Of a DNA stretch of 31,582 bases, positions 1 through 31,582 are shown in pieces. A program made the position numbers and the translations under genes. The notes below the pieces were generated by a model. The model was not told the origin of the DNA. It was given only the letters and a program-made list of their open reading frames with translations, and did not search any database. This DNA is from Bacilli bacterium (GTDB lineage Bacteria; Bacillota_I; Bacilli_A; RFN20; CAG-826), in the NCBI GenBank assembly GCA_017502465.1, contig JAFVUY010000119.1, positions 1-31,582 of the forward strand, in the 5' to 3' direction. Position 1 is the stretch's first letter. Every line of letters begins with the position of its first letter.

Positions 1-966
1 TATGTAGAAAAAATTAATGTATATAATATTCCTCAGCATTCTCGTTATAAAGAAATATATTATGATTATTTTAATATTTCTAATTCTACAATTAGCTTAA
101 AAGATGAATATAAAGGTACTTTAAAGGGAAAAATTATTTTACCTTCTAAAGATAAAAATAATAATTATATTTATACGATAGGCGATTTTAGAGAAGGGGG
201 AGAAGGAGGAATTACTCATATTTATTTCTCTTCAGACGCTCAGTATACGACTATTGGAAAACACGCTTTCAGTGGTAATTTCAATGATGAAGGAACTTCT
301 GATGGATTTTTTAATCCAAAAATTAAGAAAATTAAATTACCTTCTACTATTACAACTATAACTGAATATGCTTTTTTCCACAATAATACTATAGAAGATA
401 TTAATTGGTCTAATTTAACTTCTTTAAAAATTATTGGAAGATAGGCATTTGGAGGATCTGGTAGCAGTAGCGGTAATAGAAGATGTTCAATCGACATCAA
501 TGGTTTACCCGAATCTTTAATAAAAATTGGCGAAAGTGCTTTTTGGAGAGCCTCTGATACAGTTAATATTACTAATATGCCAGCTTCAATGATAGAAATA
601 GGCGGTAGTGCCTTTGCTTTTGCTTCTAATGTCGCTATTACTGAATTTGGTTCTCGAAATAATAATATTTAGATGACAATTGGAAATCAAGCATTTTTTG
701 ATGCAGGTGAAAATATATCTTCTATTTCAGAAACTTTAATTTTAAATGAATCAGTTATTAAAGTAGAAGATAGTGCTTTTGCAAGCGGTGTTAATAGTAA
801 TATTTATGATAATATTAAAACTGTCTATTTGAGATATGGGGCTGAAAATTATAATGATCGAATGTTTGCGAATGAGGATGAGCCTAAATCAGCTTTCGTT
901 AATTACATTGGTTTGACAAATGTTGAAAATATTATTGATGAATAGGAAGGAGATATTGAACCATAA
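1..966 (+). CDS. BspA-type leucine-rich-repeat (TpLRR-like) surface/fibre protein, 5' partial, read through 3 in-frame TAG codons (442-444, 670-672, 943-945)
   Basis: Frame 1 is open from base 1 to TAA at 964-966 apart from the three TAGs. About 23-residue repeats carry the I-G-x-x-A-F core (IGKHAF, ITEYAF, IGR-TAG-AFGG, IGESAF, IGGSAF, IGNQAF, VEDSAF), typical of BspA/TpLRR repeats. ORF-track fragment 673..945 is part of this gene. Confidence 0.6.
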
Positions 967-1175
967 TGACACAAAAGAAAAAATTTAAATATATTGGTCT
1001 AAATGGAACTATTTTTTCTCCAGTTTTAATTCCAAAAGCTGATAAAACAGAATTTATTGAGTTAAAAGCAGATGAGGGAAAAATTCTTACTAATGGTTCT
1101 GTTTAGAAAAAGATTGTTTTGGTTTTACCAGAAAATGTTTCTAAATGGTCTGAGATTGCGGACGAATTAGAATAA
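966..1175 (+). CDS. small hypothetical protein (69 codons, 1 in-frame TAG), start overlaps upstream stop (TAATG)
   Basis: ATG at 966 in the TAATG overlap. The frame is open to TAA at 1173-1175 with one TAG at about 1104. A hairpin plus T-run follows. Confidence 0.35.
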
Positions 1176-1198
1176 TAAAATATAATAAAAATTTAAAA

Positions 1199-1250
1199 TA
1201 AAGGAGGAGAAGAGTATTTTTCTCTTCCTTTATTTTTTTAAATTGCAGAC
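1199..1250 (+). terminator. rho-independent terminator (imperfect hairpin aaggaggagaagag / ctcttcctt, then T-run)
   Basis: Inverted repeat followed by tatttttttaaa immediately after the stop of the small CDS. Confidence 0.45.
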
Positions 1251-3165
1251 AAGAAAGGATGGCTTTTTAAATATGATTACTCAAGATAATTTAAGTACTC
1301 GTGATGGTTTATATGCGAGAGCCAATGGTGTTCTATTGAATTCTGCTGTTGAAATAACAGATGCTTATGGTAATACTGGTACTGTTAAATCATTGGCAGA
1401 AAAAAGAGGATTTAATATTGGTAGCACTGAGGAAGAAAAAAAGGCAACTCATATTGATAACATTAATACTTATTTTAAATATTTAGATATTTTAGCAGCT
1501 TATGAAAATGTAGAACTAGGTAAGCTTTCTTTAGGGCAAGAGGTAGATCCAATCTCTTTTAGCTATTGGGAAAAAACCGTTAATAATGATGGAGTTATTA
1601 CTGAGGTAATAAAGAATGGTGAAGAAGAATTTTAGCCTATTTTTACTATGCTTCCCGCAGATGAACCTCGTTTTAAAGTAAATTTAAACACTAGAAGAAT
1701 TGAAATTCCTTCTGGGTTTATTGGTCAATAGGTTCAAAATGATAATTATGCAGAAACTATTTGGTTTGAAGTTGATAGATATTTTGATGCTACAGATTTA
1801 TATGCAACAGATATTTCTATTCAATGGGAAAATGGGAGAGATAAGGGTGTAACTCAAGCTTTTAATCCTATGGCTAATTTAAATATTCATTAGATTTATG
1901 GAAAAATTGTTTTTGGTTGGCCTTTAACCTCTAATATTACCAAAAATAGTGGTAATGTAAGATTTACTATTCGTTTCTATAAAGAAAGTGAAAGTACTGG
2001 AGAATGTGTTTACAATTTAACTACATTACCAATGAATTTAAAAATTAATGATGGTTTAGTAATTGAAGGTATAATGCCCACAGATGCTCATAAAGGTTTT
2101 TATGATAATTTAAAAGTAAAATCTTTCTATACTATTGTTCCTGCTGCTATGCCAGCATTAGCAGAACTTATTGCGGATGGCAAGAGTACTTCTGTAAGAG
2201 AAGGAGATTTAGAAAATGGATAGTTAAATCTTTTAGCCAGAGGCGATTTTAATGCTAGTGATAATGGCGGAAAAGGTACTTTGTCCTATGAATGGATTCG
2301 CTATATTGAAGATTCTGATGGTGATATTATTTTAGATCCTAGTTTTAAAGGAGAGGGGGTTCCTTTCTCTCATAGCAATGGAAATGAATATAATAAATTT
2401 ACCGCCAATGCTGCAGGAGCTTATGGAGTAAAAATTAGAAATTATTACGGTGGAGATACAAAATATTTTATTCCTTCTTATTATAAATTAAGTAATGGAG
2501 TTTAGGTTTATAATAGTGAGGAATTGTTTAAGATTCCTTATGCTTCTACCCCTATTTTTAAGAATGTTAATGAAAATAATTTAGAAGTATCTGTTAATGA
2601 CACTAAAGTTATTTCTTTTACTTTAGATAATGAAAAAAATTCTACTTATCAATGGCAGTATAGTAGTGATAATAGCAACTATAATGACATTGATGGTGCA
2701 AATACAACAAGTTTAACTTTTAATAGAACTACAGGGTTTAATGAAGGCTGGTATAAACTTTATGCAACTAATAATAGAAATGATAATAGTAAGAGCGCTT
2801 TAAGTGATTAGGCTTATATTGTTACTTATCCAGCTTAGCCTTATATGATTCAAAGCTTTACTGTAAATAATAAAAATATTAATGCAGGAAATGGTGTTAC
2901 TCTTATTGAATGTGCTGAAAATGAAAGTACAAGCATTACACCAAATCTCTCTGCCAACCCAAATAATATAAAAAGTTTAACCAGTTATTCAATAAAATGG
3001 TATCGTAATGATGTAGAAGTTACTAATGTAAATGGAAATACTTTAATTATAGATGATAGTGAACAAAATGGTGATGAACAAGATGGTCAATACATTTGTA
3101 GAGTAACCACTGTTTATAATGGCAATGAAACTTCTGAAGACTTTATTGTTATGATATATTTTTAA
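1243..3165 (+). CDS. large virion/fibre-like protein with C-terminal Ig-like domains, about 640 codons read through 8 in-frame TAG
   Basis: ORF-track pieces 1243..1635, 2032..2223, 2281..2505, 2524..2811 and 2845..3165 are all in frame 1 and separated only by TAG (1633, 1729, 1891, 2221, 2503, 2809, 2836). There is no TAA/TGA until TAA at 3163-3165, which is followed by AAAAGGAG. The C-terminal segments look like Ig/I-set domains (WYRNDVEV...GQYICRVTT; GWYKLYATN). ATG at 1273 with GGA upstream is an alternative start. Confidence 0.6.
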
Positions 3166-3190
3166 TATTAAATAAAAGGAGTAATGTTTT

Positions 3191-4030
3191 ATGATAACTT
3201 CACATCATGATTATAAAGCATAGCTTTATTAGTTAAATAATCCAAATCATAAGTTACAAATAACAAAACTTCCTTTAGATGAACCTTTTTATAAAATAGA
3301 TTTAAACAAAAGAACTATTTAGACTCCTGAATTTTTAAGTGTAAATTTAGACCATAATGCAGAAACAGTATTTTTTGAAGTAAATCGTTATTTTGATAAT
3401 ATTGATTTAGCGGATATGACTTGTATAATTAGTTTTACAAATGCAAATCCAAATAAAAAAGAAAATGGTTTTATTTACGCTCCACCTTTTTTAGATATTG
3501 TTACTAACCCAGGGAAAATTATTATTCCCTGGGTTATTGAAGGTCCTGCAACTTTATACCCAGGTATAATAACTTTTGCTATTCAATTTTATCATTTATC
3601 AAAAACATATAATGGAAAGACTGTTGAACAATATGAATAGTTTTATGGAGAAGGTAATCTTCCAGAATATATACGAGTAGGATAGGTTAGTCAAGACACC
3701 TTTAATTCTAAGTATCATTATTTAAGAAATGAAAAATCTGAATGTTATTATGATTCAGTTTATAATGAAGACAATATTTACTATGTAAGAAAATCTTAGG
3801 AAGAAATTAATGCTCTTGAAATTGGATATTATTATGATTATAATTTAAATACTTTACCTGTAAAAAGTAAAATTTTACATGGTATGGATGAAATTCGTAA
3901 TTTAGATAATACAAATTATAACTATGAAGTTGATACTTTGAAGGAAATTTGGGATGCCATCAACGAGATAAGAAATAGTTATGAAGATAAAAATATTTTG
4001 TATTGGATCATCCCAGAAGATGAAGAATAA
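3191..4030 (+). CDS. hypothetical fibre-associated protein (279 codons, 6 in-frame TAG), N-terminal domain paralogous to residues encoded at 1636-2031
   Basis: AAAAGGAG RBS, then ATG at 3191 (the first ATG at 3184 hits TGA at once). Frame is open to TAA TAA at 4028-4033 apart from TAGs. The segment DEPFYKIDLNKRTI-TAG-TPEFLSVNLDHNAETVFFEVNRYFDNIDL mirrors DEPRFKVNLNTRRIEIPSGFIGQ-TAG-VQNDNYAETIWFEVDRYFDATDL in the upstream gene. ORF-track 3416..3640 is a fragment. Confidence 0.5.
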
Positions 4031-4046
4031 TAAATGAGGTATTAGT

Positions 4047-4436
4047 ATGGAATGGCTTGATTTATTAAATGACATTTTTAGACTTTGTATTGTTCCTCTT
4101 TTGGCTGTTTTAACTACTTATCTAGTTAACTACATTAAAGCCAAAAGTAATGAACTTGTACAAGGCAATGAAAGTATGCTTGAAGCAAAATATATGACTA
4201 TGCTTGCGGAAACAATTACTGATTGCGTGCTTGCCACAAATCAAACTTATGTTGAAGCATTAAAAGATAAGAATGCTTTTGATGAAGAGGCATAGAAAGA
4301 AGCTTTCAGACAAACATATGAAGCAGTTCTCGCTGTATTAAGCGATGACGCAAAAGAATATTTAACTAATGCTTATGGAGATTTAACTATTTATTTAACT
4401 CAAAAAATTGAAGCAGAAGTTAATATTAATAAATGA
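4047..4436 (+). CDS. holin, Holin_LLH-like (N-terminal TM helix then charged helical tail), 1 in-frame TAG
   Basis: RBS TGAGGT precedes the ATG. N-terminal hydrophobic helix IFRLCIVPLLAVLTTYLV. The pattern QTYVEALKDKNAFDEEA-TAG-KEAFRQTYEAVLAVLSDDAKEYL...IEAEV resembles Lactobacillus phage LL-H-type holins. Ends at TGA 4434-4436 followed by a perfect terminator. Confidence 0.55.
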
Positions 4437-4605: not shown

Positions 4606-5007
4606 ATGTATAATCAACAAATGCCATATGGCTATTATCCGCAACCACAAAACTCTTATAGTCGTCAGCCCGCATCTACATCCTCTCAGATGATGCTAAA
4701 AGGACGTCCAGTATCATCAGTAGATGAAGTTAGAGCGACTGTAGTAGATTTTGATGGTTCAGTATTTTATTTTCCTGATATCGCAAACAAAAGAATCTAT
4801 ACAAAGTAGATTGGTTTAGATGGTTCTGCTATTTTATGTATGTATGAATTAAAAGAACTTCCTCCGGCAGAAACACCAATGATACCATCTAATTTTGTAA
4901 CAAGAGAAGAATTTGAAAGCGTTATTAATCAACTTAGGCAGGTAATGATGGCTCCACCTCAACCGGAACCTGTTCAAGAAAAACCTGCTCTAAATTTAAA
5001 TTTCTAA
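4606..5007 (+). CDS. hypothetical protein with Q/P/Y-rich N-terminus and conserved C-terminal domain (133 codons, 1 TAG)
   Basis: ORF 4606..4809 continues in frame past TAG (4807-4809) to TAA at 5005-5007. The N-terminus MYNQQMPYGYYPQPQNSYSRQP is Gln/Pro/Tyr-rich, and the layout is loosely reminiscent of spore-coat GerQ. Followed by AAAAAGGAGG. Confidence 0.4.
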
Positions 5008-5025: not shown

Positions 5026-5268
5026 ATGATGCAAGTAAATCCTATGCAATTAATCTAGGCGATTAAAAGCGGACAGAACCCTCAGCAATTAATGCTAAGT
5101 ATTTTAGAAGGTCAAATGTCCAACACTCCCATGGGAGCAAATTTGTTAAATCTAGCAAGAAATGGAAATAGTAGAGAGATAGAACAAATTGCTCGCAATA
5201 TCTCTAAATAGCGAGGCATTGATTTTGATAAAGAATTTGCCGCCTTTCGTCAATAGTTGGGGGTTTGA
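5026..5268 (+). CDS. hypothetical small Gln-rich protein (80 codons, 3 in-frame TAG)
   Basis: AAAAAGGAGG RBS, then ATGATG at 5026. Frame is open to TGA at 5266-5268 apart from TAGs. Confidence 0.4.
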
Positions 5269-5290: not shown

Positions 5291-6118
5291 ATGTTTAACA
5301 ATTCTAATGGCTATTCTTTATCTGATATCGCCGCAGTCACTGGCAACCGTTCTGGAGGAAATGGTTGGGGAGATGGCGACGGCTGGTGGATTATCCTGCT
5401 CTTCCTCTTTGCTCTTGGTGGATGGGGAAATTATGGCAACGGCTTTGGTGGCGGCGGTGGTTCTACTACTCGTGAAGAAATTGCTTACGGATTTGACATG
5501 AACGGCCTATCCAATGGCGTTCGTGGAATCCAATAGGGCTTATGTGATGGTTTCTATGCTATGAATACTGGTATGCTGAATGGCTTCGCAGGTGTTCAAA
5601 GTACATTATGCCAAGGCTTCTCTGGTGTAAATACTGCTATTTCTGACTTAGGTTATTCAACTGCAAATGCTATTAATGCTAGCACCGTAGCAGATATGTA
5701 GAACACTAATGTTATTACTGGTCAGTTAGCTGCAATGGCTGCTGATAATGCTGCTTGTTGCTGCGAAACTCAGCGTGCTATTGAACGTGGCTTCGCTGAT
5801 ACTAATTATAATCTGGCAACCCAGTCTTGCGATACTCGTCGTGCGATTGCCGATAGTACTCGCGATATTATTGATAGCAACAATGCTGGTGTTCGTTCTA
5901 TCCTAGACTTCTTAACTCAGGATAAGATTGCTTCTCTGCAAGCAGAAAACCAGACTTTAAAATTTGCTGCTTCTCAGCAAGCACAAAATAGTTACTTAGT
6001 AAGTCAGTTGCGCGAACCTTGCCCAATTCCTGCTTACTTTGTTCCAAATCCCAACTGCTGCTATGATGCCAGAGTGGTATATGGCAACAGTTGCTGCGGA
6101 AGTAATTATAACTTCTAA
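5291..6118 (+). CDS. Gly-rich, single-pass membrane, Cys-rich protein (275 codons, 2 in-frame TAG)
   Basis: ORFs 5291..5536 and 5735..6118 share a frame and are bridged only by TAGs. A GGAGG RBS is present. Gly-rich segments flank a hydrophobic helix (WWIILLFLFALGGW). The C-terminus is Cys-rich (AACCCE, NCCYDARVVYGNSCCGSNYNF). Confidence 0.5.
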
Positions 6119-6143: not shown

Positions 6144-6563
6144 ATGGAAATTACTGCTAATGCTTTATAGACAGTTAATGAAAATCAAAATGTACTATTT
6201 ACCGACACAGTTATTTGCGGAAGTTGCTCCATGATGCACAGAGACGGCAGTGGTCTGATTACTGTAAAAGGTATTACAGACCAGTGCCGCGCACGCTTCA
6301 AAGTAACCTTCGGCGGCAATATTGCCATTCCCGCAGGTGGCACCGTAGAAGCGATTTCACTTGCTATCTCATTAGATGGTGAGGCTATTGGAACAACTAC
6401 AATGATTGTAACTCCTGCCGCAGTAGAAGAATTTTGGAACGTATTCAGTGCTATCTTTATTGAAATTCCACGCGGTTGTTGCGCTTCTGTTGGAGTTCGT
6501 AATATCAGCACTCAGCCAATAGATGTTCAAAATGCTAATTTGATTGTAGAACGAGTAGCATAA
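6144..6563 (+). CDS. BclA C-terminal-domain-like (C1q/TNF-like jelly-roll) protein, 139 codons, 1 TAG
   Basis: GGAGGT RBS, then ATG at 6144. TAG at codon 9, then the ORF-track 6231..6563 segment. The C-terminus ...NANLIVERVA and the beta-rich, G/T/A/I-rich pattern closely resemble the C-terminal domain of Bacillus exosporium BclA (...SASIIIEKVA). Confidence 0.5.
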
Positions 6564-6576: not shown

Positions 6577-7314
6577 ATGAGTAAAGATATGATTAAATCA
6601 ATGAAACAAACCTTAATGTGTTGCGCTCAAGGTCAAATGGGACATCTTGAAAGCGTTGATGCTAAGGAACTTGGCGAAGTAATTGATATGATTAAAGACC
6701 TTGAAGAAGCAATGTATTATTGTGTAATCGTTGAAGCGATGGAAAAAGGTGAGCAAGAAGGATAGTCTCGTTACTACCACGATCCTTATATGTATAAAGA
6801 TTGGGATCATGGTCGTATGTTCTATCCTATGAGTATCAATTATTATAGTGAAAGTGGTAAATATAATCCAGAATAGGGTGATATGAAACATTACTTCACT
6901 GAAAACGAAATGAGATATAATAATGGAACTATGTATAATGATGGAACCATGTACAGCAGAGGCCGTATGTATGCTTCCGGTGGAAATGGAGGCTCTGGCG
7001 GCGGCAGTGGTGGCAGTGGAAATGGCAATGGCTCTTCTGGAAGTCGTTATTTTCACGAATACGAAATGCCATATGATATGATGATGCGTGACCATCGTGA
7101 AGGTCAAAGCCCTATGAGTCGCCGCAGATATATGGAAGCCAAAGAAATGAAGCAGGATAAAAATACTCAATTACAGGAATTAGAAAAATATATGAAAGAA
7201 CTTTCTCATGATGTAGTTGAAATGATTGAAGATGCTTCTGCGGAAGAAAAGAAATACTTGGCAAACAAGATTTCTGCTTTGGCAACCAAGGTATCTAAAT
7301 TAGAAAATGATTAA
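6577..7314 (+). CDS. low-complexity protein (M/Y-rich repeats, GGNGGSGGGSGGSGNGNG tract, C-terminal coiled coil), 245 codons, 2 TAG
   Basis: AAGGAGG RBS. ORFs 6577..6765 and 6883..7314 share a frame and are bridged by TAG at 6763 and 6874. Repeats NGTMYNDGTMYSRGRMYASG. Ends at TAA 7312-7314, overlapping the next ATG. Confidence 0.45.
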
Positions 7315-7657: not shown

Positions 7658-8107
7658 TTATTCTGAATTTCTTATTGGAAGGACAACAGTTTTATCGTAA
7701 TATTCCTTTGCTTGTCCATTTCCTCCAAGACCCTCATACAATTTATAAAATTCAGTTAGCTAATCATACTAATCCTGAGTCATGTATCCTTGTTTTAAAT
7801 AGATTTTACATAATTGAATTAATCTAAATCTATAAGAAGCAATAATTAAATTCATCTAATGTTTTTCTTTCAAATCAACATTTCTAATATAACTTCTTAA
7901 TTCTTCAATATCATTTACTATTGGAGTAATTTGTTTTTCAATTTCTTCATCAATAGTTTCTTGTAAAGCAACCTAATCTCTTTCTTCAAGAAGTGCTTGG
8001 TACGCTTTCATCTATTTCCAAGTCCAACGACAAAATGCTAATGCACCTGCTGTTGTTAGACTAAGTAATACAGAACTCCAATTATTAGCGATAAATTCTG
8101 CTAGCAT
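7658..8107 (-). CDS. membrane-anchored small protein (N-terminal TM helix; possible holin/antiholin-like), 149 codons, 5 in-frame TAG
   Basis: RBS AAGGGGAA then ATG at 8107. The single frame is open to TAA (7660-7658) apart from five TAGs. N-terminus MLAEFIANNWSSVLLSLTTAGALAFCRW. No ORF over 60 aa was reported here, because of the TAGs. Confidence 0.45.
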
Positions 8108-8175: not shown

Positions 8176-8215
8176 CTCGGCCTTTATCAATCCCAGATAA
8201 AGGCCGAGTTTTTTT
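8176..8215 (-). terminator. rho-independent terminator hairpin (ctcggccttta / taaaggccgag) overlapping the 3' end of the resolvase gene
   Basis: An 11-bp perfect inverted repeat flanked by A6 and T7, so it is functional in either direction. Confidence 0.6.
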
Positions 8216-17350: not shown

Positions 17351-17351
17351 T

Positions 17352-17525: not shown

Positions 17526-17526
17526 T

Positions 17527-24759: not shown

Positions 24760-24997
24760 CGCTCTGTGTCACCTTTACACAATATTCCTTCAATCCAAAG
24801 TTTTCATTTACTACTTTACATAGAAAATCATTAGGACGCATTTTTGCGTCTTCGCCTTTGCGGTTCTTCAACAGTTGCTGTGCCATCGCACGAGGCATCT
24901 TGTATTCACAATAACCTGCCTTGTTTGTGCTACTATTCAAAATCTTCTTCAACTCTGCAGGATTTACTTCTATTACATTATTAATATTCTTTGCCAT
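24746..24997 (-). CDS. hypothetical small protein (83 aa) between dnaB and dnaG
   Basis: A strong RBS AAAAGGAGATTAAAAAG precedes ATG at 24997 (MAKNINN...). The ORF-track start at 25072 lacks an RBS and overlaps the dnaB stop. Ends TGA, 14 nt into dnaG. Confidence 0.45.
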   Translation of the reverse strand: MAKNINNVIEVNPAELKKILNSSTNKAGYCEYKMPRAMAQQLLKNRKGEDAKMRPNDFLCKVVNENFGLKEYCVKVTQSDGSI

Positions 24998-25071
24998 CTT
25001 TTTAATCTCCTTTTTTATTTCAATGCTACAAGCATCTTCATATAAGTTTAACTTACTGCGAGAACCTCTCA

Positions 25072-26601
25072 TTAGAAAGCACCCTCTTCTTCTGTGATAA
25101 TTTTCATATCATCAATACTTAAAATTTCATAATCATATGTCGTAGCAAACATAGGCTTAATTCTACAACAACCTAAATCTGCTTTACACCACAAATAAAT
25201 TCCTTTATATCTTCCTCGTCTATTTTTATAAACAGACATCTTGATATTAGGTTTGTCAAAAGCATTAGTTGCTAAAATATTTTCTAATGCTTGAATATCA
25301 TTATCTTTTACACCTAACAAAATTGCCCCATAGTCAATCTTATCGGCGATTGCTTTCGCACCACGAAGTAAATTTTGGTCTGGTGTATCCGCATCTGTAT
25401 AGTTACCATTTAACTGAGTTGCTGACATAATAAAAATACCATATTTATTACATAAATCTTTCAATCTAATTGACAACATAAATAGAATTGTATCTTCACG
25501 AAGTTTTACACCACCGCTCTTGCGAGTAATTTCTTCTAGAATTTTCAAACTTGTATGGATATAGTCGTGAAATACATATTTAATATCATAATCACGAATA
25601 TTTTTTCTAATTTTATCTTCAACGTCTTGAAGTGAGAAGTCTGGTAGTTCTTCAATATAAATTGGACTTTCCGCAAGGATACGGGCTGCTTCCAGAACAC
25701 GTTCTCTTTCATCGCCTTCATATTTACCATTCAAGATATGTTCTTCATTTACATTAGATAAGAAAGCCAACATCATAGTTTGAACTTCGCCAAGTTCTTG
25801 TTCTGTTGTAATATATAATGTTGGTTCTGCTGTACCATTTTTAATCCAGCCGAACATTTCATCATAAATACGATTACAACCAATATAACAAGCATCCGCA
25901 ATCATTGAACGAGTCTTGCCGATACCAGTAGCGGCCGAACGCAAATAAAACTTCTTTAATCTTGCTCCTCGCGTAACTGTATTAATGAGCGGGCCATATA
26001 GAGGAACACCAACTTCTGGATGCTTTTCCAAATCCGCAATCAGTTCAAAAATACCCTCGCCAGCCTGCGATGCTTCTCCAAAAGAACCGTTTACATACTG
26101 ACTACGAATGTCTTCCATCTTGCCATCAATGCGGTCTGCTATTTGCTCCAATGTTGTGTTATCAAGATAATCTTCCTGCATTTGTTTCTTTTTAACATCC
26201 AGAATATTATCTGGGTCATAGATGAAAGAAACATCCAGTCCAAAATTATCATATGCTCTTAATAGAGTCATCTTTTTTAATCGGTTATAATAATAATCAA
26301 AGGAAGAAGAATTCGCAGTTTCAGCAATTTTCATCAACCACTCTTCACCCTTTTGTTTTACAAAAATTTCTTTACTTTTGGGTCTTGAATCCAAAAAGTC
26401 TAATACATTATTAACTGAAATTTTCTCAGCACCTAATTCGTGTAGTTTATAAATTGCTCCAAAAGCAATCTTATGGAATTTATCTGGAAAATCTTCATCT
26501 GTAATAATATACTTATCAGTATAGTCCAAAAGTTGTGGAGTATTGAATACACATCCAATTACTTGCATTATACTTGTAGTATCAACAAATTTACTGCTCA
26601 T
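25072..26601 (-). CDS. dnaB: replicative DNA helicase (DnaB-like)
   Basis: N-terminal DnaB domain. RecA-like C-terminal domain with Walker A SAATGIGKT. 509 aa, no TAG. Confidence 0.85.
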   Translation of the reverse strand: MSSKFVDTTSIMQVIGCVFNTPQLLDYTDKYIITDEDFPDKFHKIAFGAIYKLHELGAEKISVNNVLDFLDSRPKSKEIFVKQKGEEWLMKIAETANSSSFDYYYNRLKKMTLLRAYDNFGLDVSFIYDPDNILDVKKKQMQEDYLDNTTLEQIADRIDGKMEDIRSQYVNGSFGEASQAGEGIFELIADLEKHPEVGVPLYGPLINTVTRGARLKKFYLRSAATGIGKTRSMIADACYIGCNRIYDEMFGWIKNGTAEPTLYITTEQELGEVQTMMLAFLSNVNEEHILNGKYEGDERERVLEAARILAESPIYIEELPDFSLQDVEDKIRKNIRDYDIKYVFHDYIHTSLKILEEITRKSGGVKLREDTILFMLSIRLKDLCNKYGIFIMSATQLNGNYTDADTPDQNLLRGAKAIADKIDYGAILLGVKDNDIQALENILATNAFDKPNIKMSVYKNRRGRYKGIYLWCKADLGCCRIKPMFATTYDYEILSIDDMKIITEEEGAF

Positions 26602-27157
26602 TCATTTCTTCCTCTTCATCTAAAAAAGAAAATAAATTTCTTTTCTTCACTTTTCTTTGCGGAACTGGGATATGAACCTCCCATTCCTTTGGGATATATT
26701 TATTTATATCCTTTGATTCATTCTTTTGTTGTGCCAACCATAACGCATAATAATAATTATACGCATCTTGATAAATATATGGAACAATACCAATTCCAGT
26801 ATACCTTGTATCAAGGGGTTTCTTCTTTATTTCATAATAATAAACTAATGCTTTATGAATACCAGAATATGTATAGTTATAATCATTTATAAATTGATTA
26901 ATTTGTTTTTTAATACGAGGACTTACAAAATCTGTTTTATAAAGTTCCATTATATAAATATCAAGTTTTTCAGCATCAGTCTTTTCTCTTTTATCTTCCA
27001 ATTCAGCACAATGTTTGTGCGAATATTTTTCTCCAATTTTAACAAATTCAGTTTCTTTTTTGTTGAAACTTTTTTTACAATATCTACAAACGACAATATC
27101 ATTTGGGTCTGTAATTTCCAATTCTGGCACATTCGCACCATTAGCCTTCTCTCGCAA
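26591..27157 (-). CDS. zinc-ribbon-containing hypothetical protein (C-x2-C...H-x2-C), TTG start as annotated; a degenerate upstream repeat may indicate a longer product
   Basis: VVCRYCKKSF...YSHKHC motif. A near-identical zinc-knuckle (VKCIYCNTNF...YAHADC) lies in frame upstream (27160-27255), but has no ATG/GTG/TTG start between it and an in-frame TGA. Confidence 0.4.
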   Translation of the reverse strand: MREKANGANVPELEITDPNDIVVCRYCKKSFNKKETEFVKIGEKYSHKHCAELEDKREKTDAEKLDIYIMELYKTDFVSPRIKKQINQFINDYNYTYSGIHKALVYYYEIKKKPLDTRYTGIGIVPYIYQDAYNYYYALWLAQQKNESKDINKYIPKEWEVHIPVPQRKVKKRNLFSFLDEEEEMNEQ

Positions 27158-27348: not shown

Positions 27349-28323
27349 TTACATCAAATCTTCTTTGATTTCGTTAAGAATTAGATAAATGAATTCAGCC
27401 TGGTCGGGAGTTGCGTCCGCAACCTTTCTGCCCTTACCTAAATATCTTTCTACGACTGCTGTAATCTTAGGAGCATTGCTCTGATTCTTGGTCATAATTA
27501 CTCCAACGATTTCGTTGAATTCTGCCCTCAAAGCATCGTAATCATAAGTCTTTGCGATAGGAGCAATTGTTCTTTCATCGGTTACATACTGACCATTATG
27601 TTCATCTGCTTCCTTATCAATCGCACCCTGAATAGCATTTACCAGATTTTGATAACTCATAGTAATTTCATTAGGAATATACTTGAATCGGCAGCCGCAC
27701 TCAATAGAGCCATCGGGAGAACGCAAAGTCAGCACAGACATTTCATTCTTACGCTTCTGGTGAGCATAACCATAAATGTCAGCCATACCAGCGATTACTT
27801 CTCTTGTGCTATTGGACAGAGAAGGACGAACGATAGTCTTTACTTCATTAGTTGCGGGGTCGGTAGATTGGGTTTCCTTGTGGTGACCGATAAAGAACAC
27901 CGCATAACCCAATTGAGTCAATCCACGGAAAATTTCGTTGAATTCTTCCTTGAACTTGGTCCAACCCTTGCCATAACCTAGGTCGCCCAGGTCTTCAATG
28001 CCATTTTGCTGGCAAATATATTTCTTACAGCGGTCCGCAGCCACGTCAATAGTATCAACAATAACTGCCTTATAAACTTCCTGTACTTCTGGTCTTTTCA
28101 GTTCACGGAATACCTGCTTCATTTCACCCCAAGAGGTAATATCCTACGCCATTACACCAGGCAGTGCGTTATAACCTGCTTCAAATGCCAGAAGCAAACA
28201 ACCATCCATTTGGGTCGCCAAGGTGGTTTTTCCGGTCTTGGGTGCCCCATAGATGTAGGTGATGTAGCCACTAAGGTCGCGAGAGACCTTATGAGGCTAA
28301 ATATTTAATAGATTAATTGCCAT
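27349..28323 (-). CDS. Sak4-like AAA_24 ATPase (phage recombination/annealing-associated RecA-like ATPase); 324 codons, 2 in-frame TAG
   Basis: ORF 27349..28122 extends upstream through TAGs at 28146 and 28299 to ATG 28323 (RBS AAAGGAGAATAATA). The extension contains the Walker A YIYGAPKTGKTTLA, and Walker B is VIVDTID. Confidence 0.65.
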
Positions 28324-28341: not shown

Positions 28342-29277
28342 TTAGAAGTTAAATGCACCATTTGCGGGAGCAGGAGCAGGATTAATAGCATTGCCCTTAG
28401 AAGCCTTGTATTCATCCTGACGAGCCTTCATATCAGCCAGAGCAACTTCACGTTCTGCCATAAACTTAGTCATTTCAGTAGCGGTGATAGTGCTTTCATC
28501 ATCCCACAGATAGGGTTCCTTCAATGCCCAGGTGATAACGAAATCCTTCTGGGTATTTCTTACTTCACGAATTTCAGTGCCAAATGCACCTTCTTCTTCA
28601 ACTTTGCGAATAATAACCTTAGAAATCTGACGACCCTTTACTCTGGTAAAGACAGGATTCTTGGGGGATGCTTCCAGTCCTTCAAAGTAATTCATAGCAT
28701 TGGGATTTACAACAGATAATTCAACGGGCAGTAGACTATTTCTAAAATCAAAAATAGCACCCTTTACAATTACTTTTTCATCAATGTTTCTTTCTTCGTC
28801 AGCATCAATACGACGAACATTGGTGATGACAATATCACATTCAAAAGTGTTACGATTGTTTTCATCTTCGTCCAGACTTGTTGCTACGTGAACAAAGCCG
28901 CCTTCATTACGCTTTACGCTTACCAGTTCTTCTTTACCAGAACGGTCAGAATAGAATTCGTTCAAACCAATGGCAGAATCACAACGAACCATACTTGCTT
29001 TATCAGCGCCATCCTTCATTACACAAGGAATTACACCATTGATAATATTCATCAAAGTACCAAAGGTAGCATTTTCCTTACCTGCCGCAGTAGTAGCAGT
29101 TATATAAGTGAAATGAACAGGTACAATATTCAGAAGAGCATCATCAGTAGCAATTTCAATATTACCAGAAATGAACTTAGTACCAGGATTCTTGGACTTA
29201 GGACCAGACTCCTTCAATTCAAGTGTGTGCTAATACAGTAGGCCCTCAATATGAGTCTTATTTACAACTTTACGCAT
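28342..29277 (-). CDS. hypothetical protein adjacent to Sak4 (possible ssDNA-binding/recombination partner); 311 codons, 1 in-frame TAG
   Basis: ORF 28342..29217 extends through TAG (29232-29230) to ATG 29277 (RBS AGAAGGAG, in a TAATG overlap with the upstream gene). The C-terminal tail ...NPAPAPANGAFNF is reminiscent of SSB-type tails. No motif firmly recognised. Confidence 0.45.
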
Positions 29278-29642
29278 TATTCATTTACTCCTTCTTCAAT
29301 AATAAAATTCTTTCCTTTTTCAGTCAATGTATATACAACAGGGTCTTGACCTACTTTATCACAGAAACCATCTGTGACCAACTTGCGGAGACTGCCGGAG
29401 ACACCGCGAGAAGAAATAAACAATCCTTCTGCAATATCCTTGGCTTTAAGAGCAGGGATTCCGCACTCCTGCATATATTTCAAAATCTTTCTACCACCAT
29501 CGGTCAGAACAGGCTTATCTTTTACCTTATCATCACGCAGGATAGTCAGATAAGTTTTGACATTTTCAGTCATATACTTTTCAACGATTTCGGGGTTTGC
29601 TTCCATTAGAGCATCTAAAAACTTCAAAAATTCTTCTTTCAT
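29277..29642 (-). CDS. winged-helix DNA-binding protein (putative transcriptional regulator)
   Basis: KDIAEGLFISSRGVSGSLRKLVTDGFCDKVGQDPVVYTLTEKG matches a helix-turn-helix plus wing. First gene downstream of the promoter at 29676-29704. Confidence 0.5.
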   Translation of the reverse strand: MKEEFLKFLDALMEANPEIVEKYMTENVKTYLTILRDDKVKDKPVLTDGGRKILKYMQECGIPALKAKDIAEGLFISSRGVSGSLRKLVTDGFCDKVGQDPVVYTLTEKGKNFIIEEGVNE

Positions 29643-29675
29643 CAGAAAATCCTCTTTCTTATATCTTATATAAAT

Positions 29676-29704
29676 ATTATACCATAATTTTTTAATAAAA
29701 TCAA
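29676..29704 (-). promoter_or_regulatory. sigma-A-like promoter (minus strand TTGATT-17-TATAAT with TG extension)
   Basis: Reverse complement reads TTGATTttattaaaaaattATGGTATAATatttatat. The -35 is at 29699-29704, the -10 at 29676-29681, with an exact 17-nt spacer. Confidence 0.55.
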
Positions 29705-30196
29705 TTAAAGGCGTTCATAAGTTATAAATTGATAATCAATATCTTCAAAAGTTTTTATATCACTCATATCAACAATAGCCCACGAAGAATCTTTATCAAC
29801 ATTTGGGAAATAGGCATCTATGTTATTATGTGATTTATAAATTTTAGTTAAATAAATCACATCGCAAATATCTAAATATTCAGCATAGGTGCGGGCCCCG
29901 CCAATAATAAATACTGTTTCTTCTGGATGATCTTCCAACCAATAGCCGAATTCCTTTTCAGTCATTCGTAAATATTCATCGTGCGGATAAACCTCTTTTT
30001 TTCTGCTTAAAATAATATTTCTACGATTGGGCAAAGGTTTTTTAGGTAAAGACCTCCAAGTATTAGTTCCCATAACTACTGTATGTCTAGTAGTAAGTTC
30101 CTTAAATCTCTTTAAGTCTTCTGGAATATTTTCCAATAGTTGATTATTATAACCAATACCCCAATCGTTATCAACTGCTACAATTGCCGCAATCAT
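29705..30196 (-). CDS. folA: dihydrofolate reductase
   Basis: MIAAIVAVDNDWGIGYNNQLLENIPEDLKRFKELTTRHTVVMGTNTWRSLPKKPLPNRRNIILS is the canonical DHFR N-terminus. 163 aa. Confidence 0.8.
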   Translation of the reverse strand: MIAAIVAVDNDWGIGYNNQLLENIPEDLKRFKELTTRHTVVMGTNTWRSLPKKPLPNRRNIILSRKKEVYPHDEYLRMTEKEFGYWLEDHPEETVFIIGGARTYAEYLDICDVIYLTKIYKSHNNIDAYFPNVDKDSSWAIVDMSDIKTFEDIDYQFITYERL

Positions 30197-30198
30197 AA

Positions 30199-31077
30199 TT
30201 AGATACCTAAATCAAATTTCAACTGAGGCTTCATAGATTCATAATCCATCATGCTGAAGTCATCAATGGTGAAATCATAAAAATTGGTTTTTTCTGGATT
30301 AATATGAAGCATTGGCTTAGGTAAATCTGCCTTAATCCAATTGTCGCCACTCCATTCAGCCGCCTCTCTCTCATTAAAACGAGCAAACATTTCGCCTGCC
30401 TGTTCAATGTGACGGTCATAGATATGTTCATTTGCTACGAAATGACTAAACCTACCAGGCTTATAACCAGTATGTCTAGCAATCATCATTAGTAAAGCCG
30501 CATATTGAACTTCATTAATGCCGCCAGGTCCAGAAGCAGTTAACATATCGCCACTACGCTGAATTAAAACCATATCAAGGTATTCTCCACGAACATTCCA
30601 GATTGTCATAAAAGCACAAGGTGCCAGACCGGGTCCGCTACGCAAATCATCTTCCTGCCACAAAGACATGACCTTGCGGCGGCCGTATGGGTCATTTTTA
30701 ATATCTTCAATAAGACGATTTAGTAAGTCATAATGCTTAACAGTAGCACCATAGCGCTGACCGATAGTACCATCGCCAATATCCCAGTCGCCCCACCAGG
30801 TAACACCCATTTCTTCCATTTCACTAATTACATTAGTAGGCTTCTGGTAGATGGTAAAAATTTCTTTAATACCAGTCTTCCAAGCGATAGGTCTTAAAGT
30901 ACAGATAGGAAATTCTCCCTTTGCCAAATCATAAGTTCTAAAAGTATGATTTATAAAAATACTATGAGCAGGAACGCCATCGGAATATTTAGGACGAGGG
31001 TTAATGTCCTTAATACCATCCATTCTAATGCGAGTAATTATATCACTCATATAGTAATCTGCTTTTGTTAATACCAT
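30199..31077 (-). CDS. thyA: thymidylate synthase family protein (ThyA-like; divergent N-terminal phosphate-binding region, PCA instead of PCH)
   Basis: Active-site Cys context LAPCAF. YGRRKVMSLW (Arg pair), LIQRSGD, GIN...YALL, TWWGDW. Adjacent to folA. Confidence 0.7.
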   Translation of the reverse strand: MVLTKADYYMSDIITRIRMDGIKDINPRPKYSDGVPAHSIFINHTFRTYDLAKGEFPICTLRPIAWKTGIKEIFTIYQKPTNVISEMEEMGVTWWGDWDIGDGTIGQRYGATVKHYDLLNRLIEDIKNDPYGRRKVMSLWQEDDLRSGPGLAPCAFMTIWNVRGEYLDMVLIQRSGDMLTASGPGGINEVQYAALLMMIARHTGYKPGRFSHFVANEHIYDRHIEQAGEMFARFNEREAAEWSGDNWIKADLPKPMLHINPEKTNFYDFTIDDFSMMDYESMKPQLKFDLGI

Positions 31078-31082
31078 TTTTA

Positions 31083-31367
31083 TTACTCCTTATTCATAGT
31101 AAAACCAATAAATTTATCTGCGTTAGGGATAATATATTTTACATATTTATCCAAATCATCAATTACATAAGGGGTATCATCCAGCAGGTCAGGTTCATAT
31201 GCTAAATCTTCATAACTGTAAAATCTTACACCAGAAATGCCATATGCGTGTGCTTTTTCCTGCATTGCTCTTGGATTAGAACATACAACAGCAGCACCCA
31301 CCATTTTAGCATACTTAATTAACTTTTGAGTCTTTCCGCTACCTACGGACTCAATAATCTTATACAT
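31083..31367 (-). CDS. small P-loop-containing hypothetical protein (94 aa)
   Basis: ESVGSGKTQKL Walker-A-like segment near the N-terminus. Too short for a complete kinase, so it is possibly a fragment. Confidence 0.35.
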   Translation of the reverse strand: MYKIIESVGSGKTQKLIKYAKMVGAAVVCSNPRAMQEKAHAYGISGVRFYSYEDLAYEPDLLDDTPYVIDDLDKYVKYIIPNADKFIGFTMNKE

Positions 31368-31377
31368 AATATACTCC

Positions 31378-31582
31378 TTATTTTATACTATATCCAAATT
31401 CTTTTGCTTTATAAAAATTCTGCCAATAATCTTCTCGTTCATTTAATTGAGAACGGTCACATTCTTCAATAATTTCAAATGAAAAATTTTCTACTCCAAT
31501 AGACAACATAGCAGGATAAAGTTTATTGCGGGTTAGAGGCTCTGCTCCTATACCTCGCTTGATATGTTGCTTCCAACGGTCC
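31378..31582 (-). CDS. GIY-YIG homing-endonuclease-like protein, C-terminal part only (start lies beyond the window end)
   Basis: Open minus-strand frame to TAA 31380-31378. It encodes ...RWKQHIKRG...LYPAMLSIGVENFSFEIIEECDRSQLNEREDYWQNFYKAKEFGYSIK, which matches the second half of the GIY-YIG catalytic domain (R..H...N...E; Seg/I-TevI-like). Confidence 0.55.
   Translation of the reverse strand, partial: DRWKQHIKRGIGAEPLTRNKLYPAMLSIGVENFSFEIIEECDRSQLNEREDYWQNFYKAKEFGYSIK

What the first reader, a model, noticed from the sequence alone, without database searches (positions are those of the whole stretch)
1..31582. TAG (amber) is a sense codon on both strands; TAA and TGA terminate
Adjacent ORF-track fragments are single genes separated only by in-frame TAG. 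Conserved motifs continue across the TAGs:
- DHH motifs I and III of the RecJ-like gene lie upstream of three TAGs.
- The HNH core lies downstream of the TAG that 'ends' ORF 19039..19233.
- dUTPase motif I and motifs II-V sit on opposite sides of a TAG.
- The Sak4 Walker A lies upstream of two TAGs.
- The NrdD ATP-cone lies upstream of a TAG.
- The BspA-type repeats run through three TAGs.
- A 1.9-kb fibre gene carries 8 TAGs and no other stops.

Whole genes were missed by the ORF finder for the same reason: RuvC (5 TAG), the 245-codon Zn-finger endonuclease (5 TAG) and the membrane protein at 7658-8107 (5 TAG). Genes end at TAA or TGA with appropriate RBS, overlap or terminator context, so UGA-to-Trp (code 4) is not the explanation. 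This matches the amber-recoded phages reported from gut metagenomes (code-15-like).
Basis: seen in the sequence. Interest (0 to 1): 0.9.

Follow-up and report, generated by a model that had tools for sequence, protein, structure and literature searches.

The report
Phage reads amber stop as glutamine
This stretch of a gut or rumen phage genome uses TAG as a glutamine codon rather than a stop; that is real and well supported here, but it is a phenomenon already described for many gut phages.

Summary
With TAG as sense, the window tiles into 41 genes. They carry 55 in-frame TAGs in 21 genes, 27 on the + strand and 28 on the - strand. All 41 end in TAA (32) or TGA (9).

- **Homology:** Pfam domains and alignments to 78 related loci run straight through the TAGs. 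ORFs of standard-code relatives cross 37 coding-strand TAGs but no TAA or TGA inside a gene.
- **Amino acid:** Relatives have Gln opposite TAG 39% of the time, against a 3.3% background. Gln is the best-fitting residue.
- **Distribution:** TAG is not spread evenly. Core replication and nucleotide-metabolism genes have 1 TAG in 127 Gln-type codons. Structural genes, RuvC, a membrane protein, homing endonucleases and, further along the same contig, the endolysin are TAG-rich.
- **Suppressor tRNA:** None was found in the window or in about 60 kb of its contig. The closest long relative (GyrB 92%) has a 21-tRNA array with a Gln-like tRNA(CUA).
- **Prior knowledge:** This is code-15 recoding as described by Borges et al., Peters et al. 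and Babkin et al. The public gene calls for the source contig already read through TAG.

It is a new member of a known kind, of modest interest.

Unrelated side observation: the helicase gene is interrupted next to an HNH gene in a way that suggests translational bypass or frameshifting.

The parts
1..966 (+). C-terminal part of a giant BspA/LRR_5 protein (2078-2354 aa in related contigs). 3 in-frame TAGs (442, 670, 943); ends TAA.
   Evidence: Pfam LRR_5 across TAGs; TAG coordinates; full gene in L225/L169.
966..1175 (+). 69-aa gene, 1 TAG (1104); ends TAA.
   Evidence: Public call on the identical contig; counts.
1273..3165 (+). 630-aa fibre-like gene. 7 TAGs (1633, 1729, 1891, 2221, 2503, 2809, 2836) and no other stops; ends TAA.
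   Evidence: called as 630 aa in the public record.
3191..4030 (+). 279-aa gene, 6 TAGs; ends TAA.
4047..4436 (+). 129-aa gene, 1 TAG (4293). Gln in 26 of 26 non-TAG relatives.
4606..5007 (+). 133-aa gene, 1 TAG (4807). Gln in 29 of 29 non-TAG relatives.
5026..5268 (+). 80-aa gene, 3 TAGs (5056, 5209, 5254); ends TGA.
5291..6118 (+). 275-aa Gly/Cys-rich gene, 2 TAGs.
6144..6563 (+). 139-aa gene, 1 TAG (6168). Gln in 44 of 44 relatives.
6577..7314 (+). 245-aa gene, 2 TAGs.
7658..8107 (-). 149-aa membrane protein at the distal end of the leftward module, 5 TAGs.
8187..8672 (-). RuvC-like resolvase, 161 aa, 5 TAGs (codons 8, 72, 99, 120, 125); ends TGA.
   Evidence: Pfam RuvC 4-116 across three TAGs. 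Gln dominant at codons 8, 120 and 125.
8672..9238 (-). dUTPase, 188 aa, 1 TAG (codon 63) between motif I (AGYD at 36) and the Pfam-matched core.
9734..10114 (-). 126-aa gene, 1 TAG.
10595..12784 (-). Anaerobic ribonucleotide reductase NrdD, 729 aa, 1 TAG (codon 32, inside the ATP-cone); ends TGA, overlapping the NrdG start.
   Evidence: Pfam ATP-cone and NRDD to the profile end.
18712..19233 (-). HNH homing endonuclease, 173 aa, 2 TAGs (codons 65, 117); ends TAA.
20260..20802 (-). 180-aa gene, 1 TAG.
20768..22501 (-). RecJ-like DHH exonuclease, 577 aa, 4 TAGs (codons 17, 30, 104, 550); ends TGA.
   Evidence: Pfam DHH 66-209 and RecJ_OB 454-566 across TAGs.
22850..23587 (-). 245-aa Zn-finger endonuclease-like gene, 5 TAGs.
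   Evidence: no Pfam hit.
27349..28323 (-). Sak4/AAA_24 ATPase, 324 aa, 2 TAGs (codons 9, 60) flanking the Walker A (26-33).
   Evidence: Pfam AAA_24 22-202. Gln in 30 of 34 non-TAG relatives at codon 60.
28342..29277 (-). YorF-like gene, 311 aa, 1 TAG.
10104..10598 (-). NrdG, TAG-free.
12860..18369 (-). TAG-free block: guanylate-kinase-like gene, DNA polymerase III alpha (1289 aa; 38 Gln codons, 0 TAG), a 57-aa gene and the helicase.
23665..26950 (-). TAG-free block: primase-like gene, a 108-aa gene, DnaB and a 119-aa gene.
29277..31582 (-). Block with no TAG inside the window: a 121-aa gene, DHFR, ThyA, a 94-aa gene, and the last 67 codons of a GIY-YIG endonuclease. The full GIY-YIG gene has 7 TAGs further along the contig.

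Best explanation
**What it is.** The window is the first 31.6 kb of a phage contig of at least 63 kb. Relatives reach 128-169 kb and 33% GC. The replication module resembles SPbeta (PolIII-alpha/YorL, YorF), and the exact GyrB protein also occurs in a MAG labelled Bacilli. The phage decodes UAG as glutamine (genetic code 15), while UAA and UGA remain stops.

**Shown.**
- 55 in-frame TAGs sit in 21 of 41 genes, on both strands.
- These genes are collinear with homologues across every testable TAG.
- Gln is the residue that best fits the TAG positions.
- TAG use is strongly non-uniform. Replisome and nucleotide-metabolism genes avoid it. Structural genes, the resolvase, a membrane protein and homing endonucleases are rich in it, as is the endolysin further along the same contig.
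- A canonical tRNA with a CUA anticodon lies in a 21-tRNA array in the nearest long relative. It has an unpaired 1-72 position and G73, its closest paralogue is tRNA-Gln(UUG), and it is 80% identical to a phAss-1 Sup-CTA.

**Inferred.**
- The window's own genome carries the same suppressor just beyond the end of its contig.
- Infection begins under the host's standard code, so only TAG-free early genes are made in full.
- The tRNA array is transcribed with the early genes, and the suppressor competes with host RF1.
- TAG-containing late, lysis and selfish-endonuclease genes then become translatable. TAG would thus act as a timing gate.
For: **Coding density.** 0.745 rises to 0.935 with TAG as sense.

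**Domains.** Pfam domains cross TAGs.

**Homologue alignments.**
- 37 coding-strand TAGs lie inside alignments from standard-code relatives, with no internal TAA or TGA.
- Opposite window TAGs: Gln 483, TAG 138, Glu 111.
- Q is the best BLOSUM fit, 72.7 against E at 39.9.
- C-termini agree with homologues at TAA or TGA.

**Gene table and heterogeneity.**
- Per-gene table and stop usage: TAA 32, TGA 9, TAG 0.
- TAG is unevenly distributed among - strand genes: permutation p = 0.00025.
- Core genes have 1 TAG in 127 Gln-type codons against 27 in 126 for the rest: Fisher p = 2e-8.
- The + strand late genes have 27 in 96 against 28 in 253 on the - strand: p = 2e-4 (all).

**Same contig, beyond the window.** Endolysin 8 TAGs; GIY-YIG genes 6 and 7 TAGs; GyrA, GyrB and ligase 0.

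**Independent assemblies.** Identical proteins occur on 16-18 independently assembled contigs, which rules out assembly error.

**Family.** It contains standard, TAG-recoded and TGA-recoded members.

**Suppressor tRNA.**
- tRNA(CUA) in L223 at 7633-7707, within a 21-tRNA array. The array is on the same strand as, and upstream of, the TAG-free early genes.
- Gln-like suppressors also lie next to GyrB in L156 and L204.
- Three are annotated in phAss-1 (PMC10607447).

**Published model.** The same model is proposed in bioRxiv 10.1101/2021.08.26.457843. Proteomic proof of code 15 exists for crAss-like phages (PMC9523058).
Against: - No suppressor tRNA, release factor or aminoacyl-tRNA synthetase was found in the window. 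None was found in positions 1-60,237 of its own contig, nor in about 13 kb to the left on a sister contig.
- The relative that carries the tRNA is only about 74-82% identical at the nucleotide level.
- TAG is not confined to late genes. NrdD, Dut, Sak4 and RecJ inside the replication module carry 1-4 TAGs, so a simple early/late switch is an oversimplification.
- Many Bacilli are known to lack GlnRS (general knowledge, not tested here). It is therefore unclear how a CUA tRNA would be charged with Gln. Glu is the second-best fit.
- There is no expression or peptide data.
Confidence: 0.9

Rival explanations
1. The code is standard. The TAG-interrupted ORFs are pseudogenes, split genes, or sequencing or assembly errors.
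For: Under table 11 the genes appear fragmented.
Against: - All interruptions are TAG: 55 TAG against 0 TAA and 0 TGA. Yet CAA is 2.4 times commoner than CAG, so random C-to-T nonsense mutations would mostly give TAA.
- Protein conservation continues downstream of every TAG.
- TAG is conserved at the same column in relatives 138 times.
- Identical proteins occur on 16-18 independent contigs.
Confidence: 0.01
2. TAG is a sense codon but encodes an amino acid other than Gln. The main candidate is Glu, from a Gln-type tRNA charged by a non-discriminating GluRS without amidation. A mixture of residues is also possible.
For: - Glu is the second-best fit: 39.9 against 72.7.
- Glu is the second commonest residue opposite TAG.
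- A Bacilli host may lack GlnRS. This is general knowledge and was not tested.
Against: - Gln is enriched about 12-fold over background and is the plurality residue at 16 of 36 sites.
- The spectrum opposite TAG (Q, then E and K) matches the spectrum opposite genuine CAA and CAG codons.
- W, Y, L and S, the typical amber-suppressor residues, fit poorly.
Confidence: 0.05
3. The host itself reads TAG as sense, so the phage simply matches its host and no phage-driven code switch occurs.
For: No suppressor tRNA was seen in about 60 kb of the window's own contig.
Against: - The replisome and early genes strongly avoid TAG: 1 in 127 Gln-type codons, p = 2e-8. Eighteen consecutive early genes in L213 have no TAG. 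That pattern is expected only if these genes must be read under a code where TAG stops.
- A phage-encoded tRNA(CUA) is present in the nearest relative.
- Sister phages use the standard code or TGA recoding.
- Borges et al. predict standard-code hosts for all TAG-recoded clades.
Confidence: 0.03
4. The recoded stop is TGA, read as Trp (code 4), rather than TAG.
For: Some relatives in the family are TGA-recoded and carry tRNA(UCA).
Against: - In this window there is no in-frame TGA.
- Nine genes end at TGA where homologues also end.
- Coverage with TGA as sense is only 0.79.
Confidence: 0.005

Closest known systems
TAG-recoded (code 15) gut phages of Borges et al. (bioRxiv 10.1101/2021.08.26.457843; Nat Microbiol 2022), in particular the 'Agate' clade
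   Same: - Low GC, large genome, Firmicutes-type host, animal-gut or rumen source.
- The clade mixes codes 11, 15 and 4 among close relatives.
- Recoded stops are concentrated in structural and lysis genes and in homing endonucleases inserted in early genes, while core replication genes use the standard code.
- A suppressor tRNA is present in only some genomes (searches compared).
   Different: - Membership of Agate is defined by TerL phylogeny and could not be tested, because no terminase lies in the sequence reached.
- The Agate genomes analysed in detail by Borges were TGA-recoded; this one is TAG-recoded.
- Here several genes inside the replication module (RecJ, Sak4, RuvC, NrdD, Dut) also carry TAGs.
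phAss-1 / proposed 'Phassvirus' group (Babkin et al. 2023, PMC10607447; GenBank OQ749652; NCBI 'Caudoviricetes code 15 clade')
   Same: - TAG read as Gln.
- The same set of clustered replication genes: PolIII-alpha, NrdD/NrdG, RecJ, Sak4, YorF-like, RuvC.
- Relatives include Enterococcus phage EF1.
- Its Sup-CTA tRNA at 62539-62610 is 80% identical to the tRNA(CUA) of the window's nearest relative.
   Different: - Only distantly related: Pol 36.5%, NrdD 41% and RuvC 28% amino-acid identity; GC 44.5% against 33%.
- It is not the same genus.
- In phAss-1 two suppressor tRNAs sit directly upstream of NrdD. The corresponding 75-nt spacer in the window (12785-12859) holds no tRNA.
Code-15 crAss-like phages and Lak megaphages (Ivanova 2014; Yutin 2021; Peters et al. 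2022, PMC9523058)
   Same: TAG is read as Gln in late genes, the host is presumed to use the standard code, and suppressor tRNAs are present. For crAss-like phages there is direct metaproteomic proof.
   Different: These are unrelated lineages that infect Bacteroidetes. There is no protein-level evidence for the present phage.
NCBI translation table 15 (Blepharisma nuclear code)
   Same: The same codon table: TAG = Gln; TAA and TGA = stop.
   Different: That is a eukaryotic nuclear code fixed genome-wide. Here only about half the genes use TAG, and its use appears to be conditional on a phage tRNA.

Membership tests
Code-15 (TAG to Gln) recoded phage | Coding density rises markedly when TAG is treated as sense, and not when TGA is. 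| tested here: met
   Coverage is 0.745 under code 11, 0.935 with TAG as sense and 0.79 with TGA as sense. Sister contigs behave the same way.
Code-15 (TAG to Gln) recoded phage | In-frame TAGs lie inside conserved genes, and the flanking segments are collinear with homologues. | tested here: met
   Pfam domains cross TAGs. 37 TAG sites lie inside alignments from standard-code relatives.
Code-15 (TAG to Gln) recoded phage | TAG positions align with Gln in homologues. | tested here: met
   Gln 483 against the next residue, Glu, at 111, with a 3.3% Gln background. Q scores 72.7 against E at 39.9.
Code-15 (TAG to Gln) recoded phage | TAA and TGA still terminate. | tested here: met
   Stops are TAA 32 and TGA 9, with none in frame. 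Alignments end at these stops.
Code-15 (TAG to Gln) recoded phage | The genome encodes a suppressor tRNA with a CUA anticodon. This is frequent but not universal: 40% of TAG-recoded genomes in Borges et al. | tested here: inconclusive
   None was found in the window or in positions 1-60,237 of its contig. One is present in the nearest long relative, L223, at 7633-7707. By synteny, the expected position in the window's genome lies beyond the end of the contig.
Code-15 (TAG to Gln) recoded phage | Peptide evidence for Gln at UAG. | not testable with these tools
   This needs metaproteomics of the source samples.
Agate clade (Borges et al.) | Placement within the clade on the large-terminase phylogeny (at least 95% bootstrap). 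| not tested
   No TerL was found in any sequence reached. The Borges genomes are not in the searchable collections.
Agate clade (Borges et al.) | Large genome (about 127-154 kb), Firmicutes host, animal gut, and close relatives using codes 11, 15 and 4. | tested here: met
   Relatives span 128-169 kb. The exact GyrB is in a Bacilli MAG. The GyrB-centred loci classify as 43 standard, 34 TAG and 10 TGA.
Phassvirus (phAss-1 genus) | Genus-level nucleotide similarity to phAss-1. Members in PMC10607447 share 80-86% nucleotide identity. | tested here: not met
   There was no megablast match to phAss-1. Proteins are 27-41% identical and GC differs by 11 points.
Code 4 (TGA to Trp) phage | In-frame TGA in conserved genes. 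| tested here: not met
   There is no in-frame TGA, and TGA ends 9 genes.

The most novel reading that the evidence does not exclude
In this lineage the amber codon may be more than a late-gene marker. It would act as a genome-wide gate that also silences selfish homing endonucleases (HNH, a Zn-finger endonuclease and two GIY-YIG genes, with 2-8 TAGs each) and recombination or resolution genes embedded in the otherwise TAG-free early module.

If the host is a Bacillus-class bacterium that lacks GlnRS, decoding would require the phage tRNA(CUA) to pass through the host GluRS/GatCAB route. The phage's own TAG-free tRNA-handling genes, a YqeY (GatB-tail-like) protein and a Thg1-like protein, might assist. 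That would be a previously undescribed set of accessory factors for a phage code switch.
Probability: 0.12. Interest if true: 0.6.

Novelty: new member of a known kind. Interest (0 to 1): 0.3.

Why it matters
**Practical.** Annotating this phage with table 11 destroys about half of its genes, including RuvC, RecJ, the endolysin and the fibres. Table 15 must be used.

**Biological.**
- It adds a rumen or gut lineage with an SPbeta-like replication module to the set of amber-recoded phages.
- One family holds standard, TAG-recoded and TGA-recoded members, which makes it useful for studying how code changes arise.
- It supports the idea that recoded stops delay expression of late, lytic and selfish genes.

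It does not change current understanding, because the phenomenon, its amino-acid assignment and the proposed mechanism are all published.

Tried and rejected
**1. Hunting the suppressor tRNA by DNA pattern in IMG/VR.**
- Two Gln-type patterns found only L156/L204-type and unrelated phages.
- A pattern from the L223/phAss-1 suppressor found only the Phassvirus group.

**2. Walking by protein.**
- The flotillin gene led to unrelated phages of 40-45% GC.
- The L106 268-aa protein gave no tRNAs.
- Lookups around GyrB in relatives of 79-80% identity gave no tRNAs.
- The walk that worked ran from the GyrB homologue search and exact-sequence cluster look-ups to contig look-ups.

**3. Rfam scans of the window and flanks** found no tRNA or other RNA family, only hairpins.

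**4. 'TAA as sense' control.** Coverage of 0.938 is uninformative. Removing the commonest stop in a 33% GC genome opens overlapping spurious ORFs: 107 ORFs totalling 19,993 codons.

**5. Idea that TAG specifically replaced CAG.** CAG is depleted in TAG-rich genes (12 of 101 against 81 of 225, p = 5e-6). AAG is depleted to the same degree and GC3 is lower (0.156 against 0.234). This is general codon bias, so the idea is not supported.

**6. Idea that phage YqeY is associated with TAG recoding.** Homologues occur in four TAG-recoded loci that are otherwise unrelated. A wider survey of 18 loci was uninformative, because YqeY sits in TAG-free early regions. YqeY is also reported in standard-code T4-like phages. 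The result is inconclusive.

**7. Nearest relatives in INPHARED.** Only Enterococcus and SPbeta phages turned up, at about 40% Pol identity, plus a 766-bp NrdD match to Thomasclavelia phages.

Full report
**Source and layout**

The window is 31,582 bp at 33% GC with no tRNA gene. It is 100% identical to positions 1-31,582 of ENA contig ERZ27256853 k141_154837 (63.6 kb). It is 99.99% identical to XIEF21-1 scaffold_248 (70.8 kb).

Genes on the + strand occupy 1-7621. This is a late or structural module: the end of a giant BspA/LRR_5 protein, a fibre-like gene and small proteins.

Genes on the - strand occupy 7658-31582. This is the replication and nucleotide-metabolism module, which contains:
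- RuvC, Dut, NrdG/NrdD and a guanylate-kinase-like gene;
- PolIII-alpha, a helicase, HNH and RecJ;
- a Zn-finger endonuclease, a primase-like gene and DnaB;
- Sak4, a YorF-like gene, DHFR, ThyA and the end of a GIY-YIG gene.

The public gene calls stored for these contigs already read through TAG, for example RecJ at 577 aa, RuvC at 161 aa and the fibre at 630 aa.

**Checking the observation**

Treating TAG as sense raises coverage by ORFs of at least 100 aa from 0.745 to 0.935. Treating TGA as sense gives only 0.79.

I took gene coordinates from the public calls and re-verified them in the window. This gives 41 genes:
- 55 in-frame TAGs in 21 genes, 27 on the + strand and 28 on the - strand;
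- no in-frame TAA or TGA;
- stop codons TAA 32, TGA 9, TAG 0.

Pfam domains cross the TAGs: RuvC 4-116, ATP-cone, DHH 66-209, RecJ_OB 454-566, AAA_24 22-202 and LRR_5.

As a test that does not presuppose the code, I took ORFs called under table 11 from relatives that clearly use the standard code and ran tblastn against the window.
- On the coding strand the alignments run through 37 TAG sites.
- The only TAA or TGA they touch are three stops lying 1-2 codons upstream of start codons, at alignment edges.
- The other TAA/TGA hits are antisense shadows.

Alignments with relatives end within 0-7 residues of the TAA or TGA stop for nearly all genes. Identical proteins recur on 16-18 independently assembled contigs, so assembly error is excluded.

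The exceptions are listed under the observation check: 7 rather than 8 TAGs in the 1.9-kb gene, and the stated positions of the RecJ, Sak4 and NrdD motifs relative to the TAGs.

**Which amino acid**

A PolIII-alpha search of IMG/VR returned 78 related loci at 46-77% amino-acid identity. Some are standard-code (code-11 coverage about 0.94). Others are recoded, with code-11 coverage of 0.44-0.88 rising to 0.92-0.98 when TAG is sense.

- Opposite the window's TAGs these relatives have Gln 483 times (CAA 352, CAG 131), TAG 138 and Glu 111, against a Gln background of 3.3%.
- In the reverse direction, window residues opposite relatives' TAGs are Gln 448, Lys 130 and Glu 128.
- With one vote per site (36 sites), Gln is the plurality residue at 16 sites.
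- The BLOSUM62 fit ranks Q at 72.7, E at 39.9 and K at 14.8. W, Y, L and S are negative.
- The spectrum opposite TAG matches the spectrum opposite genuine CAA and CAG codons.

TAG therefore means glutamine, which is table 15.

**Distribution of TAG**

TAG makes up 28% of Gln-type codons in the + strand late genes and 11% on the - strand (Fisher p = 2e-4).

Within the - strand module the distribution is very uneven (permutation p = 0.00025).
- PolIII-alpha, the helicase, the primase-like gene, DnaB, NrdG, NrdD, the guanylate-kinase-like gene, ThyA and DHFR together have 1 TAG in 127 Gln-type codons.
- The remaining - strand genes have 27 in 126 (p = 2e-8).

The TAG-rich - strand genes are RuvC (5), the 149-aa membrane protein (5), the Zn-finger endonuclease (5), RecJ (4) and HNH (2).

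Further along the same contig:
- the endolysin has 8 TAGs and the adjacent 99-aa gene has 2;
- the two GIY-YIG endonucleases have 6 and 7;
- GyrA, GyrB and the ligase have none.

In the nearest long relative, 18 consecutive small early genes have no TAG. A five-gene late block there has 24.

This is the pattern Borges et al. describe. Structural genes, lysis genes and intron or homing endonucleases are recoded, core replication genes are not, and use in the replication module is variable.

TAG-rich genes also have lower GC3 (0.156 against 0.234). Their CAG depletion is matched by AAG depletion, so I do not claim that TAG specifically replaced CAG.

**Mechanism**

No tRNA, release factor or aminoacyl-tRNA synthetase gene was seen in any of these stretches (Pfam lists):
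- the window;
- positions 1-60,237 of its own contig (the window plus L215 and L220);
- about 13 kb to the left on a sister contig.

I then walked upstream along the closest long relative. This is ERZ27297701 k141_713442, 169 kb, essentially the same phage as TONG22-1 scaffold_14. Its GyrB is 92% identical, gene order is the same, and nucleotide identity is about 74-82%.

The walk reached a 21-tRNA array at L223 1045-9158. It lies on the same strand as, and upstream of, the TAG-free early genes. At 7633-7707 the array contains a canonical cloverleaf tRNA with anticodon CUA.
- It has an unpaired U1.U72 and G73.
- Its closest paralogue in the array is tRNA-Gln(UUG), at 73% identity.
- It is 80% identical to one of the three Sup-CTA tRNAs of phage phAss-1. 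Babkin et al. assigned their tRNA-SUP-CTA to Gln with tRNAscan-SE.

By synteny, the equivalent position in the window's genome is about 10 kb beyond the Thg1-like gene. That places it just past the ends of both available contigs.

More distant family members, L156 and L204, carry Gln-like tRNA(CUA) genes directly upstream of GyrB.

In summary:
- **Shown:** a phage-encoded Gln-type amber suppressor exists in this lineage's nearest relative and in wider kin.
- **Inferred:** the window's phage has one, it is expressed early, it outcompetes host RF1, and TAG thereby delays expression of late, lytic and selfish genes.
- **Open:** how the tRNA would be charged if the host lacks GlnRS. The exact GyrB protein is deposited from a 'Bacilli bacterium' MAG.

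**Comparison with what is known**

TAG-to-Gln recoding in gut phages is well established.
- Borges et al. surveyed 473 recoded genomes. [quoted passage not shown]
- Peters et al. gave metaproteomic proof for crAss-like phages.
- Babkin et al. described phAss-1 and its relatives.
- NCBI taxonomy has a 'Caudoviricetes code 15 clade'.

The present phage shares a core of replication genes with phAss-1, but at only 27-41% identity, so it is not in that genus.

Its size, host type, animal-gut source and family-level mixture of three codes (43 standard, 34 TAG and 10 TGA loci) resemble Borges's Agate clade. Membership is defined on TerL and could not be tested.

**Verdict**

This is a new member of a known kind, and its interest is modest (0.3).

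**Side observation, not part of the finding**

The helicase gene is interrupted just before its P-loop.
- A 30-codon ORF (ATG 18722 to GCT 18633, MLTKKQEEGLKIAVARYKERKPYTCIAGYA) ends at TAA 18632-18630.
- Five nucleotides later, GCT GGC ACA GGT AAA... (AGTGKST...) continues in another frame down to 17527.
- Intact relatives read IAGYA|GTGKST without a break.

Across the polymerase-centred loci:
- every locus with the HNH gene directly upstream has such an insertion (14 sources);
- all HNH-less loci are intact except four (L022, L048, L053, L056), which carry the insertion with no HNH detected.

In all nine insert variants a stop codon directly follows an Ala codon. An Ala codon directly precedes the Gly of GTGKST in six variants, and a one-base variant of an Ala codon does so in the other three.

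A strong hairpin lies directly 5' of the stop, at -29 kcal/mol with z = -3.9. It is present in all seven interrupted alleles I aligned, and the complementary arms are absent by inspection from intact alleles such as L027 and L003.

The downstream ORF is intact in all lineages. In L073 the short N-terminal ORF even uses TAG at a conserved Gln.

This resembles the phage T4 gene 60 / mobA cassette, a homing endonuclease linked to a coding gap that ribosomes bypass (bioRxiv 10.1101/2022.08.31.505936). It suggests a short translational hop or a frameshift. I have not shown which, if either, occurs.

Noticed in passing
window 17527-18722 (helicase) and 18712-19233 (HNH), - strand; gap at 18625-18632: The PIF1/RecD-like helicase is interrupted just before its P-loop.
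- A 30-codon N-terminal ORF ends ...IAGYA-TAA.
- After 5 nt, GCT GGC ACA GGT AAA (AGTGKST...) continues in another frame. This is a net 8-nt insertion relative to intact relatives.
- All 14 sources with the HNH gene directly upstream have such an insertion (5, 7 or 8 nt). HNH-less loci are intact, except four that carry the insertion with no HNH detected.
- A stop always follows an Ala codon, and an Ala codon or a one-base variant of one precedes the Gly.
- A strong hairpin (-29 kcal/mol, z = -3.9) abuts the stop in the interrupted alleles, and its arms are missing from intact alleles I inspected.

This looks like a T4 gene 60 / mobA-type mobile cassette that requires a short ribosomal hop or a frameshift.
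   Followed up: partly
L223 7633-7707 and the whole array 1045-9158 (ERZ27297701 k141_713442): The nearest long relative has a 21-tRNA array containing the Gln-like tRNA(CUA). The same array holds a tRNA-Phe-like gene with an 8-nt anticodon loop (2792-2868, which ARAGORN reads as a 4-base anticodon 'gaaa'). That is the architecture of +1 frameshift-suppressor tRNAs.
   Followed up: no
L121 499-594; L140 and L141 176-271: Relatives that lean towards TGA recoding carry a 96-nt tRNA(UCA), which ARAGORN labels SeC. It is tRNA-Trp-like. Its long 'variable arm' is a second hairpin that resembles an anticodon arm and carries CCA. This looks like a tandem duplication of the Trp anticodon arm with one copy mutated to read UGA.
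   Followed up: no
L215 10001-12945 (same contig as the window, positions about 38.4-41.4 kb): GyrB is split into a 504-aa part and a 131-aa part by a GIY-YIG endonuclease gene with 6 TAGs. The 92%-identical relative has an intact 633-aa GyrB.
   Followed up: no
L220 1-133 (Thg1-like), 908-1708 (RlaP), 7042-7497 (YqeY), 10001-11118 (AAA_33 kinase + Metallophos); same contig as the window: The TAG-free early region encodes several tRNA- or RNA-handling proteins. One is a YqeY protein (a family I recall as related to the GatB C-terminal domain) and another is Thg1-like. A possible link to charging or maturing the suppressor tRNA was explored and remains inconclusive.
   Followed up: partly
L001-L165 (family survey): One phage family, with 46-77% PolIII-alpha identity to the window, contains standard-code, TAG-recoded and TGA-recoded members. 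In the 10 kb upstream of GyrB, tRNA arrays were seen only in loci not classed as TAG-recoded; no TAG-classed locus had any tRNA there.
   Followed up: partly
L215 2013-3353 (flotillin/Band_7 gene, same contig): The flotillin-like gene uses CAG 29 times and CAA 0 times, unlike the rest of the genome where CAA predominates. Its relatives sit in unrelated phages of 40-45% GC. It looks like a recent horizontal acquisition.
   Followed up: no
window 26591-27268 (- strand) and the gap 26951-27348: The ORF upstream of DnaB extends about 100 codons beyond the called 119-aa gene. The extension has Cys-rich, zinc-ribbon-like repeats but no ATG. About 400 nt here carry no called gene, and the true start is unclear.
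   Followed up: no
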